This document shows positions 38,846-63,881 of a DNA stretch of 64,000 nucleotides, piece by piece (position 1 is the stretch's first letter; the number at the start of each line of letters is the position of its first letter). The translations under genes were made by a program, and so were the position numbers. Origin of the DNA: Octopus sinensis (lineage: Eukaryota); NCBI RefSeq assembly GCF_006345805.1, contig NW_021836139.1:62001-126000 (forward strand), read 5' to 3'. The notes below the pieces were generated by a model. The model did no database searches. It was not told the origin of the DNA and worked only from the letters and a program-made list of their open reading frames with translations.

Positions 38846-38985
38846 ATTTCACGTTACAGATTTTCAGTCACAAGAGGAACTGCAACGCGAAACTCCGAGT
38901 AGTAACTCACGTTTTGACATTCATTAGTTTCTCCTGGTTCATTGCGTTTCCCATCCGTGGGATGCCTTAAAACTATCATGTGTGT

Positions 38986-38988
<3 letters not shown>
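38846..38988 (+). repeat. ~140-bp direct duplication (partner 42116-42260), each followed by (GATA)n
   Basis: ATTTCACGTTACAGATTTTCAGTCACAAGAGGAACTG.AACGCGAAACTCCGAGTAG is shared. Confidence 0.9.
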
Positions 38989-39054
<66 letters not shown>

Positions 39055-39059
39055 GAGAG

Positions 39060-39228
<169 letters not shown>

Positions 39229-39456
39229 CAGATAGATAGATAGAGGATCTTTTCTTTTTGAAAGCCAGATTTTCCTAGTTAACTAAACAATTTGAAACTT
39301 CGTATAAAATCTGACTTTCAAAAAGAAAAGATCCGCCTAATATTTATTCTATCGGTCTTTTTTGCCGAACCACCAAGTTACGGAGACGTAACACACCAGC
39401 ATCGTTTGTCAGGCGATATTTGGGGAACAAACACAGACACACACACACACACACAC

Positions 39457-39487
<31 letters not shown>

Positions 39488-40235
39488 GAAAAAACAAGTC
39501 AAAATAGAAAATGCTAAAATAATTTTATAAAGAACATTTCAGTACCGGTTTCGGTCATTTTGAGACCTTTCAACTGTAACGATTAAATAATTAAATTTAG
39601 AAAAATTAAAAGAAAAGTTTTTTTAAAGGAATATTGTATAGTGTTCAAATATAAGTGGCATTCTGCCTTTCTCTGTCTCCCTTGTTTGCACTTGTGTGTT
39701 CGAGGCCGTTGTGAATTCTTGGTAGGGTAGAAGAAGAAGAAGGTTGATGAGGAGAGGGGGTGGGAAAATTTGGGAGTGCCTTGATGGTCGTATTTTGAAT
39801 GGTTAGTGACGGCTAGCAGTTGCAGTTCAATTCAGGAGAATATTTCTATTGAAAGGTTTGTTTATGGAATTTGCGTAGGTGTTATACTAAAAAGCATTAG
39901 TGATAAAGTTAAGAGGTAGAAGGTGGAGAAGCAGAAGAAGAAGAAGAAGATGACGATGTTGATGATGATGATGATGAAGAAGAAGAAGAAGAAGAAGGAG
40001 AAGGAGAAGAAGAAGATGATGATGATGGTGATGATGATGATAATGATGATGAAGAAGAAGAGGAAGAAGAAGAAAAAAGAGAAGGGAGAATATGAATGGG
40101 TGAAAGTAGTGAGGTGTTGTATGACTTGAAGTTGGCACGTTATGGATTATAGCTGTGATTGGGGCTGATTTGTAATGGATTCTTTGGAATGTAATATTTG
40201 TGTGTGTATTTCTTTTATTCTAAAGTTGAGGTATA

Positions 40236-41445
40236 TTAATCGTTTGTTGTAGACCCGTTAGGAAGTGGCCTGTATTTTGTAATAAAGAGAGTTTCTTTAC
40301 TTATTCGTTGTCTCGAGGTTGTATCGTCCCTAAATTGGTAGAGGGGGAAAATCCTGAAGCCTGGTGTTTTGTTGTTGGCGCAAGTATCTATGTATTGGTT
40401 GAAAGCTATTTTTCTGTTTTGGGGAATTTTTATCTGGGATCTGTGCAGGGCCATTCTTTTACGCAAACTACTTTTTGTTTGGCCTATGTACTGCTCTTGA
40501 CACCCGGAGCAGGTTAGTGAGTATATTAGGTTCTCCGAAGCACATGTGAAGTTGCTTTTCACTGTAAACCGTTGTCCCTGTTTGAAGGAGAACTCTGATC
40601 CATCAATTAGATAATCGCATATCCCGCAATTGGGTCTTCCACATTTTTTTACTGTCGGCTTCTGTGTTGAAGAGTGTATTCGGGCTTGTGTTAGGAGATT
40701 TTTCATAGATTTAGGCTGTCTCTTGCTTTTTATGATCGTGTGTGTTTGGAGGAGTGTGTTCATTCTGTGGTCTTTTTTTTAGGAGGGGTATGTTGTGGAC
40801 GATGGTGCCAAAGGCTTCATTATTGAGAGGGTTGTGCGTGGAGATGTATGGTAAGGCTTTTGGTCGTAAGTTTTTCTTTGATTTGGGATGTCTCAGTTCC
40901 TTGATGTTAAGTTGAAGGGCACGTTGAATGCACATGTCAATAAGTGAAGGTGGGTAGTTCTTGGTGATAAGGGTATTTTTTAGTTCTTGTAGTCGTGTGT
41001 CTCTGGTGTTTGCATTAGAAACTATAGTGCATATCCTTTTTGCTAGATTGAAGGGGATATTCATCCTGGTGTGTCTGGGGTGGCATGAATTGAATGGAAG
41101 ATATTGCTTAGAATCTGTAGGCTTATAATATATGTCTGTTTCTATTACATTATTAGCTTTCTTAATGAGGATATCGAGGAAGGGGAGTTGTTGCTGGCTA
41201 TATTCCATCGTGAATTGGATGTTTACGTCCAGTCCGTTTAAAATTTCTTGGAATTCTATGAGTTTTTCTATATTTTTATGCCAAAGAATGAAACAGTCAT
41301 CTAGATATCTCTTCCAGTTGTTTTCTATGTAGATGGAGAAAGGGCTGCCATATCTTTCTAGAACCTTACGATACAGACTGATCTCTAGATATCCTATGAC
41401 TAGGTTGGCAAAGGAGGGGCCATTCGTGTACTCATCGCAGTCCCC
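40236..41445 (-). pseudogene. PLE reverse transcriptase (C-terminal half) + GIY-YIG endonuclease, frameshifted
   Basis: GTAM..RMAP/SFANL, WKRYLDDCF, LPFLDI, YYKPTD..QYL...SCHP; Cys linker KCGRPNCGIC; NLIY..TC..C..QYIGQT...R...H. Frameshifts near 41418 and 40770. Confidence 0.93.
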
Positions 41446-41753
41446 GATAACACCTACGCAAATTCCATAAACAAACCTTTCAATAGAAATATTCTCCTGA
41501 ATTGAACTGCAACTGCTAGCCGTCACTGACCATTCAAAATACGACCATCAAGGCAATCCCAAATTTTTCCACCCCCTCTCCTCATCAACCTTCTTCTTCT
41601 ACCCTACCAAGAATTCACAACGGCCTCGAACACACAAGTGCAAACAAGGGAGACAGAGAAAGGCAGAATGCCACTTATATTTGAACACTATACAAATATT
41701 CCTTTAAAAAAACTTTTCTTTTAATTTTTCTAAATTTAATTATTTAATCGTTA

Positions 41754-41791
41754 CAGTTGAAAAGGTCTCAAAATGACCGAAACCGGTACTG
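41754..41791 (+). ncRNA. Minimal type-I hammerhead ribozyme-like motif in PLE pseudo-LTR, U3-A8 core
   Basis: CAG-TTGAAAA-GGTC-TCAAAAT-GACC-GAAAC-CG-GTA-CTG. The mirror copy at 39540-39576 (-) lacks one core A. Confidence 0.75.
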
Positions 41792-42257
41792 AAATGTTCT
41801 TTATAAAATTATTTTAGCATTTTCTATTTTGACTTGTTTTTTCATATATATCAACTCGTGTGTTCCTTTTCACCCATATATATATATATATATACATATA
41901 TACGACGGGCTTCTTTCAGTTTCCGTCTACCAAATCCACTCACAAAGCCTTGGTCGGCCCGAGGCTATAGTAGAAGACACTTGCCCAAGGTGCCAAGCAG
42001 TGGGACTGAACCCGGAACTATGGGGTTCGTAAGCTAGCTACTTACCACACAGCTACTCCTATGCCTATATATTCATATATACACACATACATAATTTTAT
42101 TACAATGTTACTATTATTTCACGTTACAGATTTTCAGTCACAAGAGGAACTGGAACGCGAAACTCCGAGTAGCAACTCACTTTTGATATTTATTAGTTTC
42201 TCCCTGTTCATTGTGTTTCCCATCTGTGGACGCCTCAAGACCATCATATGCGTGTGT

Positions 42258-42314
<57 letters not shown>

Positions 42315-42346
42315 TGGATAGATAGATAGATAGATAGATAGATAAG

Positions 42347-42417
<71 letters not shown>

Positions 42418-42758
42418 GTAGATAGATAGATAGATATATATATAGATAGATAGATAGATATTGACATAAAAGGCAGATTTTATCTGCCTCCCTTTGGGAG
42501 TTATACAATCTACAATATAGGATTTCTTCAATTACAATTTACCTAGCATTTTTAAGAGTACAATGCATCGCGTCATGCCAGGTCCAGTTTTTAAAATTTA
42601 AACTCCAATTAAGCAAAATTTACAGAAAACTCACATTCTGGTGTGTGTGTCAAATGCTTTTCTTAGTCTGGTTTACAGCACACGCAAACGCACACACACA
42701 GTGTGCAATGAATAAACTGAAACTAATTCACTGTGTGTTGACAGGTAGAAAATAGAAT

Positions 42759-45821: not shown

Positions 45822-46334
<513 letters not shown>

Positions 46335-63082: not shown

Positions 63083-63621
63083 AAAACAGAAAATTATAGT
63101 GCGACTGGATTACATTCATTCGCACGTCCTATAGTCTAGGAAAAGCTAAGAAAGCCTGATTTAGATGAACGAATGGTTTATGTGAGTCATGCTAACCCTG
63201 TACAGGGATTCCATTTGCAAGATGATTATAACTGAGTTATAATCAAGACCCAGTTCTCTGTCCCACTTGTAGATTATAGTTCTGAAGGGAGTTTAAGAGC
63301 TCACAAATGAATGCTTTTCCCTGCCATCAGGGAATTGTCTATGCTCAAATCGGAGAAAAGTAGTTGATCAGAGCAATTCACAATATACCAAAAGTAAAAT
63401 TATGGATACACAAGAGATGCAGTAGATCACAAGCGGGTTGTCAGGAAAATAAATATTTGTATTTAGCAGATGCACAGGAGAGGTTTGATGAAGCAGCATC
63501 AATGAAATAGATCTTTTCAACTGGTGTAAGTGTTCTCTCGAAGTAGTTGATAGCATCTATTACTTTGGTGACTAGATAGAAATGGAGGTAGTTTCTTTTT
63601 TGATATCATAGAAGGTAAAAT

Positions 63622-63881
63622 TCTGTTGTGTCTGGGGAGAGTCAATTTCTTTTTGTGCCTTATAATGTAACACACTCACCGGTACGGTAAAACTTCCATT
63701 TATTTCTTATTATTATTTTCCTAAAATTTTCGTTGCGTCTTGCAACCTTTTCAATAGTAAGTGTATTAAATTATAAGGCACAAAAAGAAAATGACTCCCC
63801 CCTCCGCCCCCAGACACAACAGAATATGCTTCAACACACGAACTCACATAAAGAATCTTGCAAACCAAATCCAAAAACGAA
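63622..63881 (+). mobile_element. Family C insertion with inverted 5' part and 12-bp TSD
   Basis: AGAAGGTAAAAT at 63610-63621 and 63882-63893; hammerhead-like motif at 63721-63757 (-). Confidence 0.8.

What the first reader, a model, noticed from the sequence alone, without database searches (positions are those of the whole stretch)
41754..41791. Penelope pseudo-LTR carries a hammerhead with a compensatory U3-A8 core
Seen: CAG-TTGAAAA-GGTC(TCAAAAT)GACC-GAAAC-CG-GTA-CTG, in the sense orientation of the pseudo-LTR. Established: PLE pseudo-LTRs encode minimal type-I hammerheads with palindromic helix III, and C3 pairs with G8 in the active fold. Inference: UUGAAAA is a U3-A8 covariant that keeps this pair, so CUGANGA-pattern searches would miss it. 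The 39540-39576 copy has one A fewer.
Basis: partly seen in the sequence, partly recalled or inferred. Interest (0 to 1): 0.75.

Follow-up and report, generated by a model that had tools for sequence, protein, structure and literature searches.

The report
Penelope-element hammerhead with U3-A8 core
A young Penelope-like retrotransposon family of about 1,700 copies carries in its terminal repeat a minimal hammerhead ribozyme motif whose core reads UUGAAAA instead of CUGANGA; this paired change is already described in other Penelope-like elements and is predicted, not shown, to leave the ribozyme able to cut.

Summary
The motif is at 41754-41791 (+) exactly as described. Its partner at 39540-39576 lies on the minus strand and has one A fewer. 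Both sit in 405-nt inverted arms around a 5'-truncated Penelope-like element: RT fragment plus GIY-YIG nuclease, minus strand, inserted in (TA)n.

The refutation test fails. UUGAAAA is the family state, found in 1673 of 1751 flank-matched copies in the 2.72-Gb genome. No CTGAAGA copy has this family's loop. A 508-copy subfamily shares the core.

A second, older and unrelated-looking repeat family (63721-63757, minus; 1957 copies) has the same UUGAAAA core with different but still pairing helices I, II and III. A hammerhead descriptor hit 0 of 200 simulated windows, so this is a real hammerhead-type motif and not a mutated copy.

It is not new. Natural U3-A8 hammerheads were reported in 2011 (PMC3088659), and U3-A8 minimal hammerheads in Penelope-like elements in 2014 (PMC4209133).

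Cleavage is untested. No RNA run was on record, helix I is short, and in monomer folds U3 pairs with A17 (P about 0.7).

Verdict: observation confirmed, reading supported, a new member of a known kind, low-to-moderate interest.

The parts
41754..41791 (+). Minimal type-I hammerhead motif, family 1. Helix I is CAG/CUG. The core is U3 U4 G5 A6 A7 A8 A9. Helix II is GGUC/GACC with loop UCAAAAU. Then follow G12 A13 A14 and helix III A15.1-C-[CG]-G-U16.1 (palindrome ACCGGU), then A17. The predicted cut is between 41788 and 41789.
   Evidence: Rfam HH9 sub-threshold match, 20.9 bits.
39540..39576 (-). Second copy of the same motif, in sense with the element's ORF and 3' of it. The core is shortened to UUGAAA by loss of one A. 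This is a rare form, 1 of the first 100 listed genome copies.
41447..41877 (+). Inverted copy of the element's 3'-terminal region (right arm). It includes a stretch of about 26 nt (41852-41877) that the left arm lacks, and it ends in (TA)n.
   Evidence: Inverted repeats I1-I4 at 98-100% identity.
39480..39885 (-). 3'-terminal repeat region (pseudo-LTR part) of the element, left arm. It ends in (TA)n/(CA)n.
40711..41547 (-). Open frame holding the C-terminal part of the reverse transcriptase (YLDD motif). It is 5'-truncated at about 41446, where the inverted arm begins.
   Evidence: The matching part of a longer copy hits Pfam RVT_1 at E 6.1e-9. The window fragment alone has no Pfam hit.
40236..40778 (-). 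Open frame with a CX4CxxC linker and the GIY-YIG endonuclease domain.
   Evidence: Pfam PF01541, E 5.1e-5, 23.9 bits against a cut-off of 22.6.
63721..63757 (-). Second, unrelated-looking U3-A8 minimal hammerhead motif, family 2: CUA-UUGAAAA-G(bulge)-GUUGC(AAGAC)GCAAC-GAAA-AU-U-U-UAG. It sits inside a repeat unit of about 250 nt that has inverted ends of about 45 nt.

Best explanation
The 38-base motif is the terminal-repeat hammerhead of a young Penelope-like retrotransposon family whose family-wide core is UUGAAAA (U3-A8 in place of C3-G8). It is predicted to cut its own RNA after GUA (between 41788 and 41789), likely only when two copies pair through the palindrome ACCGGU or with help from the element's protein.

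Shown:
- The window holds one 5'-truncated insertion on the minus strand (RT fragment, GIY-YIG nuclease, 3' region). An inverted copy of its own 3' end of about 430 nt lies upstream, and the whole insertion sits in a (TA)n tract.
- A near-full copy elsewhere is a 4325-nt tandem unit, with the motif about 50-80 nt upstream of the long open frame.
- All core positions except 3 and 8 are canonical, and U3/A8 can form the same Watson-Crick pair.
- Two subfamilies and a second, older family share this core while their helices differ yet still pair.

Inferred:
- The ribozyme trims read-through or tandem transcripts at the upstream repeat to give the element RNA its 5' end. This is the role proposed for hammerheads of Penelope-like elements in PMC4209133.
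- Activity is probably weak, as measured for other minimal hammerheads of these elements.
- The 3'-proximal copy is mostly left uncut, because every insertion keeps about 63 to about 110 nt beyond the cut site.
For: Identity and context:
- RT (RVT_1, E 6.1e-9) is followed by GIY-YIG (E about 2e-5 to 6e-5) on one strand.
- The window has 405-nt inverted arms.
- A tandem unit shows motifs 4325 nt apart.
- Among the first 100 listed copies there are 26 neighbour pairs within 6 kb: 22 head-to-head (-/+), 3 direct and 1 +/-. This matches the arrangements described in PMC8557442.

Family state:
- 1673 of 1751 flank-matched copies read TTGAAAA; the reversed-pattern control gave 0.
- In the 508-copy subfamily with a different 3' flank, 30 of 32 sampled instances read TTGAAAA and 2 are truncated inside helix II.
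- Single-change forms are rare: 9 CTGAAAA and 6 TTGAAGA in family-1 context.
- In contigs of four organism labels, no variant reaching 10% of depth was listed at 41757 or 41762.

Fold conservation:
- Family 2 has 1957 flank-matched copies. 78 of the first 100 listed read TTGAAAA and none reads CTGAAGA. 17 of 18 diverged copies (81-94% identity) read TTGAAAA.
- Family 2 keeps the 12 fixed core letters identical to family 1 but differs on both sides of 4 of the 7 comparable stem pairs: 2.1-1.1 G-C/A-U, 2.2-1.2 A-U/U-A, 10.2-11.2 G-C/U-A, 10.4-11.4 C-G/G-C. It also has another helix III palindrome, AAUU.
- It carries the bulged base between A9 and G10.1 that PMC4209133 lists as typical.

Chance: 0 descriptor hits in 200 simulated windows.

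Folding:
- The minimum-energy folds of the 38-, 54- and 76-nt stretches form helices I and II.
- The two-copy cofold forms a double hammerhead with a 6-bp ACCGGU helix III.

Literature read:
- U3-A8 covaries in natural hammerheads, and such cores were already shown to be active in vitro (passages of PMC3088659).
- A U3-A8 variant occurs in the Cercyon Penelope-like element, with about 1300 hits (PMC4209133, parts 1-2).
Against: - No cleavage data exist. No RNA run is on record for this stretch, and contigs cannot show RNA ends.
- The dimer's energy gain (-7.5 kcal/mol) is no better than that of shuffled sequences: mean -7.28, and 77 of 200 shuffles reach it.
- In the 152-nt context the minimum-energy fold is not the hammerhead.
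- In monomer ensembles U3 pairs with A17 at P 0.67-0.73. This resembles the C3-G17 trap described in PMC3884650 and may hold the core inactive.
- Helix I has only 3 bp, plus 2 more beyond an A-A mismatch. The more distal pairs of helix I are lost in the 508-copy subfamily.
- Most insertions carry only one sense copy, with an antisense copy upstream, so a dimer in cis is possible in a minority of copies.
- Copies are 98-100% alike, so the family count shows descent from one master, not repeated selection.
- Variation in family 2's core is spread over all seven positions, as in neutral decay.
- In the one element of this class tested in vitro, hammerhead mutants did not impair insertion (PMC11167929). 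Naiad elements thrive without hammerheads (PMC8557442).
Confidence: 0.6

Rival explanations
1. The motif is a hammerhead by descent but is catalytically dead or nearly so. It is carried along because cleavage is dispensable for copying, and UUGAAAA is just what the successful master copy happened to have.
For: - Hammerhead mutants did not affect in vitro insertion of the Anolis element, and no RNA-seq reads began at its cut site (PMC11167929).
- Naiad elements proliferate without hammerheads (PMC8557442).
- Family 1 copies are 98-100% identical, so they trace to one founder.
- U3-A17 pairing is favoured in monomer folds.
- Helix I is short.
- The dimer gain is not above shuffles.
- The core of family 2 decays evenly across positions.
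Against: - Exactly the two pairing partners changed, and both by transitions, while the other fixed core letters stayed canonical. This holds in two families whose helices differ on both strands yet still pair.
- The state persisted through the split into two subfamilies.
- U3-A8 cores are reported active in vitro (passage of PMC3088659).
Confidence: 0.3
2. The conserved stem-loops serve mainly as a binding or positioning signal for the element's RT/endonuclease near the 3' end, where reverse transcription starts, and not as a ribozyme. The hammerhead-like core is retained for its shape.
For: - The motif lies about 63 nt, and in other copies up to about 110 nt, upstream of the insertion ends. 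The two end classes recall the tail and the two internal RT start sites described in PMC8557442 and PMC11167929.
- The Anolis hammerhead cleaved only with protein present.
Against: - Nothing here tests protein binding.
- Conservation of the exact catalytic letters G5, A6, G12, A13 and A14 and of a U-H cut site in two families is more than a binding hairpin would need.
Confidence: 0.08
3. The motif is a chance look-alike in A+T-rich repeat DNA.
For: - Rfam gives no match at gathering score.
- The region is A+T-rich, and the variant core UUGAAAA is of low complexity.
Against: - There were 0 descriptor hits in 200 simulated windows against 2 observed.
- The motif lies where hammerheads of Penelope-like elements are expected, in the terminal repeat near the 3' end (PMC4209133).
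- A second family shows compensating helices.
Confidence: 0.02

Closest known systems
U3-A8 minimal hammerhead of the Cercyon Penelope-like element of Schistosoma mansoni (Cervera and De la Pena 2014, PMC4209133; parts 1-2 read, supplement file 2 searched by terms)
   Same: It is a minimal type-I hammerhead in the terminal repeat of a Penelope-like element. U3-A8 replaces C3-G8. It was missed by the CUGANGA descriptor. Copy numbers reach the thousands, many copies are solo, and pairs occur on opposite strands 100-700 bp apart. Helix III is palindromic and implies action as a dimer.
   Different: The host genome and element family differ. Here helix II has 4 bp without the bulged base (family 2 has the bulge), helix III is the 6-nt palindrome ACCGGU, and the cut-site base is A17, which can pair with U3. 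Copies are nearly identical rather than highly heterogeneous. The mollusc examples found in the supplement (Lottia, Crassostrea) have CUGANGA cores.
Natural U3-A8 hammerheads reported by Perreault et al. 2011 (PMC3088659; passages read)
   Same: They show the same covariation of the 3-8 tertiary pair. The authors state that such cores had already been shown to be active in vitro.
   Different: Those examples are not described there as belonging to Penelope-like elements. I did not see their sequences or figures.
Penelope hammerhead of Drosophila virilis (PMC4209133)
   Same: It has a small palindromic helix III with a 2-nt insertion and a very short helix I. Its copies are highly uniform (97 of 130 identical), which the authors attribute to an ongoing invasion. 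That parallels 1673 of 1751 identical here.
   Different: The D. virilis core is canonical at positions 3 and 8, helix II has 6 bp with bulges, and an intron abuts helix I.
Hammerhead of the Anolis Poseidon element PAc (PMC11167929; passages read)
   Same: It is a terminal-repeat hammerhead lying just upstream of or overlapping the ORF start. Genomic insertions end at a tail beyond it. Its 3-8 pair was tested by compensatory mutants.
   Different: PAc has C3-G8, and the compensatory pair tested was G3-C8, not U3-A8. Its ORF starts inside stem II, whereas here the long open frame starts about 50-80 nt downstream.

Membership tests
Hammerhead ribozyme (type I, minimal form of Penelope-like elements) | Fixed core letters U4 G5 A6 N7 A9, G12 A13 A14, the A15.1-U16.1 pair, and H17 at the cut site | tested here: met
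   All are present at 41758-41763 and 41779-41788. They are also present in family 2.
Hammerhead ribozyme (type I, minimal form of Penelope-like elements) | C3 and G8 as in the consensus CUGANGA | tested here: not met
   Position 41757 is T and 41762 is A. This is the family state in 1673 of 1751 copies.
Hammerhead ribozyme (type I, minimal form of Penelope-like elements) | Positions 3 and 8 able to form a Watson-Crick pair | tested here: met
   The pair is U3-A8. The same pair occurs in a second family. It is reported as a natural covariation in PMC3088659 and PMC4209133.
Hammerhead ribozyme (type I, minimal form of Penelope-like elements) | Three helices: an open helix I, helix II closed by G10.1-C11.1, and a short palindromic helix III | tested here: met
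   The descriptor hit. The minimum-energy folds of the 38-76-nt stretches form helices I and II, and the cofold forms the ACCGGU helix III. The dimer's energy gain is not above that of shuffles.
Hammerhead ribozyme (type I, minimal form of Penelope-like elements) | Score at or above the gathering score of an Rfam hammerhead model | tested here: not met
   There were 0 matches at gathering score. HH9 scored 20.9 bits against 52. Family 2 had no hammerhead match at E up to 10.
Hammerhead ribozyme (type I, minimal form of Penelope-like elements) | Site-specific self-cleavage | not testable with these tools
   No RNA run is on record, and only contigs could be laid.
Penelope-like element (endonuclease-bearing) | Reverse transcriptase followed by a C-terminal GIY-YIG endonuclease in one reading direction | tested here: met
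   RVT_1 at E 6.1e-9 and GIY-YIG at E 1.8e-5 to 5.9e-5 in copies L034 and L035. GIY-YIG at E 5.1e-5 in the window.
Penelope-like element (endonuclease-bearing) | Terminal repeats formed by partial tandems, often with an inverted 5'-truncated copy upstream | tested here: met
   The window has 405-nt inverted arms. A tandem unit measures 4325 nt. Of 26 neighbour pairs, 22 are head-to-head and 3 direct.
Penelope-like element (endonuclease-bearing) | A tail at one end and a preference for microsatellite targets | tested here: met
   Both window ends abut (TA)n, and only the right arm has the extra stretch of about 26 nt. In the sampled copies the insertion ends cluster near +64, with others at about +87 to +110, and are followed by (TA)n.
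Penelope-like element (endonuclease-bearing) | RT groups with Penelope-like and telomerase RTs in a phylogeny; assignment to a clade | not tested
   Only a marker was seen: a CX4CxxC motif upstream of GIY-YIG. PMC8557442 describes this motif for the Neptune and Nematis clades.

The most novel reading that the evidence does not exclude
U3 acts as a built-in toggle. In a lone copy it pairs with the cut-site base A17 and extends helix I (P about 0.7 in monomer folds), which keeps the 3'-proximal ribozyme off so that template RNA keeps its 3' end. When two copies pair through ACCGGU, or when the element's protein binds, U3 shifts to A8 and the upstream ribozyme fires. On this reading the U3-A8/A17 combination is an adaptive switch that helped this family reach about 1,700 near-identical copies.
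Probability: 0.08. Interest if true: 0.55.

Novelty: new member of a known kind. Interest (0 to 1): 0.25.

Why it matters
- The result adds a second, well-counted case in which the 3-8 tertiary pair of the hammerhead core covaries in nature inside Penelope-like elements. Here it occurs in a family young enough (98-100% identical copies) that its master was recently able to copy itself.
- It shows that standard annotation misses thousands of such motifs per genome, whether by CUGANGA patterns or by Rfam gathering scores.
- The genome holds natural single-change copies (CTGAAAA, TTGAAGA), which offer a ready-made panel for testing the pair.
- It does not change what is known about how these ribozymes work.

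Tried and rejected
- RNA evidence: no RNA holder is listed for 41450-41880. The four runs laid were contigs only, which cannot show RNA ends.
- Dimer energetics: the cofold gives a double hammerhead, but its gain of -7.5 kcal/mol is matched by 77 of 200 shuffles, so it does not count as support.
- Search for a canonical-core sister with the same helix III (CTGANGA...CGAAACCGGTA): only 3 hits, none clearly related.
- The 23 CTGANGA hits with a GGTC/GACC helix II: of these, 3 loci were inspected (L040, L044, L046). They have flanks unlike family 1, and none matched my descriptor. They appear to belong to another, heterogeneous family that I did not characterise.
- tblastn of family-1 ORF pieces against the 20 family-2 loci: no hits. 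No Penelope-like ORF was seen within 1.5 kb, so the autonomous partner of family 2 is unknown.
- Rfam on family 2: only hairpin-type matches to plant microRNA families, caused by its inverted ends.
- ARAGORN on 41850-42120: no tRNA.
- Earlier notes on this genome: none.
- Przybilski and Hammann 2007 (PMC1986816), on exchanges of the 3-8 pair, is not held. I saw only its title in a reference list.
- The 2026 preprint on animal retrozymes returned no occurrence of my search terms octopus, cephalopod, mollus, covaria, catalytic core or min-HHR.
- Literature searches: 'U3-A8' with 'hammerhead' found only PMC4209133. 'C3U'/'G8A' and 'C3-G8' added nothing on U3-A8.
- Supplement file 1 of PMC4209133 could not be searched and may hold further U3-A8 examples.

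Full report
**Observation.** In hammerhead numbering:
- U3 is 41757 and A8 is 41762.
- G10.1-C11.1 closes a 4-bp helix II.
- G12 A13 A14 follow.
- Helix III is A15.1-C/G-U16.1 around CG, giving the palindrome ACCGGU.
- The cut-site base is A17 (41788).
- Helix I is CAG/CUG.

The second copy at 39540-39576 does have one A fewer (core TTGAAA). It lies on the minus strand, so the two copies are inverted.

I wrote a descriptor requiring helix I of at least 3 bp, either core, helix II of at least 4 bp closed by G-C, GAAA, a palindromic helix III, and U followed by H. It hit twice in the window and never in 200 Markov simulations of it. Rfam does not call the motif at gathering score. The best sub-threshold match is Hammerhead_HH9, at 20.9 bits against a gathering score of 52.

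**Surroundings.**
- The two copies sit in inverted arms, 39480-39885 and 41447-41851, that are 98-100% complementary.
- Between the arms, on the minus strand, lie two open frames. One holds the C-terminal part of a reverse transcriptase (YLDD; 41547 to 40711). The other has a CX4CxxC linker and a GIY-YIG nuclease (40778 to 40236; Pfam E 5.1e-5).
- Longer copies elsewhere give RVT_1 (E 6.1e-9) followed by GIY-YIG.
- One locus, L035, is a direct tandem with motifs 4325 nt apart. The motif there lies about 50-80 nt upstream of the long open frame.

The window therefore holds a 5'-truncated Penelope-like element on the minus strand. The 39540 copy is in sense with the ORF and 3' of it. The focal 41754 copy belongs to an inverted copy of the element's own 3' end, placed upstream. 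Both ends abut (TA)n. The right arm runs about 26 nt further (to 41877) than the left. In the sampled copies, insertion ends cluster near +64 nt, with others at about +87 to +110 nt beyond the cut site, and they are followed by (TA)n. These features match the published anatomy of such elements: an inverted 5'-truncated copy upstream, a tail at one end, and microsatellite targets (PMC8557442 passages; PMC11167929 passages).

**Is UUGAAAA the family state?**
- A pattern that fixes only the flanks (ACAG, 6-8 free bases, GGTCTCAAAATGACCGAAACCGGTA) finds 1751 places in the 2.72-Gb genome, and 0 for the reversed control. Of these, 1673 read TTGAAAA.
- Among the first 100 listed, 98 are TTGAAAA, 1 is TTGAAA and 1 is CTGAAAA.
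- Copies found with a 171-nt query are 98-100% identical (45 matches listed; 40 of 879 candidates scored). The family is very young.
- A subfamily with a different 3' flank has 508 copies. In 32 instances from 30 loci, 30 read TTGAAAA and 2 are truncated inside helix II. Some loci overlap, so a few of these instances are duplicates.
- Forms with C3 are rare. Of 42 hits to CTGANRA-GGTC...GACC-GAAAC, 9 are family-1 copies reading CTGAAAA. The 23 with CTGANGA all carry other loops. The 3 of these 23 that I inspected have unrelated flanks.
- TTGANGA gives 9 hits, 6 of them in family-1 context.
- CTGANGA followed by this family's helix III gives only 3 hits.
- In contigs from runs with four organism labels, no variant reaching 10% of depth was listed at 41757 or 41762, with depth present in every bin.

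**A second family.**
- The other descriptor hit, 63721-63757 (minus), reads CTA TTGAAAA G GTTGC(AAGAC)GCAAC GAAA AT T T TAG.
- It belongs to an older repeat with a unit of about 250 nt and copies 77-100% identical to the window copy.
- It has 1957 flank-matched places. Of the first 100 listed, 78 read TTGAAAA, none reads CTGAAGA, and the other 22 are scattered over all seven core positions.
- In an alignment of 18 diverged loci, 17 read TTGAAAA.
- Compared with family 1, the fixed core letters are the same. Four of the seven comparable stem pairs differ on both sides and still pair. Helix III is another palindrome (AAUU), and the cut-site base is U.
- The extra G between A9 and G10.1 is the bulge that the 2014 paper lists as typical of these minimal hammerheads.
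- No Penelope-like ORF lies within 1.5 kb of the 20 loci sampled. Rfam sees only the hairpin made by the unit's inverted ends.

This second family is the best argument that the hammerhead fold with a U3-A8 pair is what is conserved, and not one lucky master copy. Within each family, however, I found no sign of selection beyond descent.

**How it probably works.** Three things are shown: the sequence has every hammerhead requirement except the identity of the 3-8 pair; U and A can make the same pair; and the motif lies where Penelope-like elements carry their ribozyme.

The rest is inferred. As proposed for these elements (PMC4209133), the upstream repeat's ribozyme would cut tandem or read-through transcripts after GUA, leaving RNA that starts with CUGAAAUG.

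Short stretches fold into helices I and II. Two copies cofold into a double hammerhead with a 6-bp ACCGGU helix III (-27.1 against 2 x -9.8 kcal/mol).

Against a strong claim:
- That gain is no better than for shuffled sequences (77 of 200 reach it).
- The 152-nt context folds otherwise.
- Helix I is short, and its outer pairs are lost in the 508-copy subfamily.
- Only 3 of 26 neighbour pairs among the first 100 copies are direct, against 22 head-to-head. Few loci can therefore form a dimer in cis.
- In monomer ensembles U3 pairs with A17 at P 0.67-0.73. This recalls the C3-G17 trap discussed in PMC3884650. Family 2, with U17, lacks this pair.
- Every insertion keeps sequence beyond the cut site, so the 3'-proximal ribozyme was not cut in the templates that were copied.
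- This fits the Anolis element, where catalytic mutants did not impair insertion in vitro and the ribozyme needed protein.

I put the identity of the motif as a U3-A8 hammerhead of a Penelope-like element at about 0.9. I put real cleavage in vivo at about 0.5.

**Comparison with what is known.**
- Perreault et al. 2011 state that C3 and G8 covary to U3 and A8 in several natural hammerheads, and that such cores had already been shown to be active in vitro (passages).
- Cervera and De la Pena 2014 report a U3-A8 variant in the Cercyon Penelope-like element of Schistosoma mansoni. It was missed by their descriptor, and a new descriptor then retrieved about 1300 hits. They measured only low in vitro activity for dimeric constructs of these minimal motifs.
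- Their supplement file 2 lists mollusc, nematode, echinoderm and vertebrate examples with CUGANGA cores. It has no occurrence of 'U3-A8' or 'Octopus'. File 1 could not be searched.

The present case is thus a new member of a known kind. What differs is the host genome, the helix sequences, A17, the near-identity of about 1,700 copies, and the presence of two separate U3-A8 families in one genome.

**Verdict.** The reading is supported at the sequence level, and cleavage is untested. Novelty is low because both the covariation and its occurrence in Penelope-like elements are in print. Interest: 0.25.

Noticed in passing
window 63721-63757 (minus); unit about 63620-63830: A second U3-A8 minimal hammerhead motif sits in an older repeat of about 250 nt with inverted ends of about 45 nt. 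It has 1957 flank-matched genome copies, often in head-to-head pairs 38-65 nt apart. No Penelope-like ORF lies nearby, so it may be a non-autonomous derivative.
   Followed up: partly
window 38846-39260 and 42116-42510: A direct repeat flanks the Penelope-like insertion and the neighbouring repeat. It consists of a unique part of about 135 nt (69 nt at 96% identity) followed by long (GATA)n tracts. It looks like another repeat family rather than a target duplication.
   Followed up: partly
G000 contig C12609 (for example 157092-157262 and 179088-179248): Both window motifs recur at 100% identity on contig C12609, with nearly the same spacing as in the window's contig C12610. C12609 is probably an alternative haplotype or a duplicate assembly of the same region.
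   Followed up: no
loci L040, L044, L046, L049, L050 (genome G000): A heterogeneous family carries canonical CTGANGA cores, a GGTC/GACC helix II and a shared 3' flank (GAGTTGTCTCCCA-like). There are 23 canonical hits genome-wide. The copies did not fit my strict descriptor.
   Followed up: partly
two instances among loci L058-L087 (subfamily with 3' flank CTGAAAGATTCAC): Two instances share a junction inside helix II: unrelated sequence abuts GTCTCAAAATGACC. They may be one place seen twice in overlapping loci (L070/L071). The junction suggests a truncation or rearrangement point within the ribozyme.
   Followed up: no
window 41900-42060: A G+C-richer repeat of about 160 nt lies just outside the right arm. 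Similar text recurs near 45900-46100 in the ORF listing. ARAGORN finds no tRNA in 41850-42120. From memory it resembles a tRNA-derived SINE, which I did not test.
   Followed up: partly
window 39902-40081: (GAA/GAT)n triplet repeats on the + strand, which read (CTT/ATC)n on the element's strand, lie in the element's 3' untranslated region between the nuclease stop and the terminal repeat (family D5).
   Followed up: no
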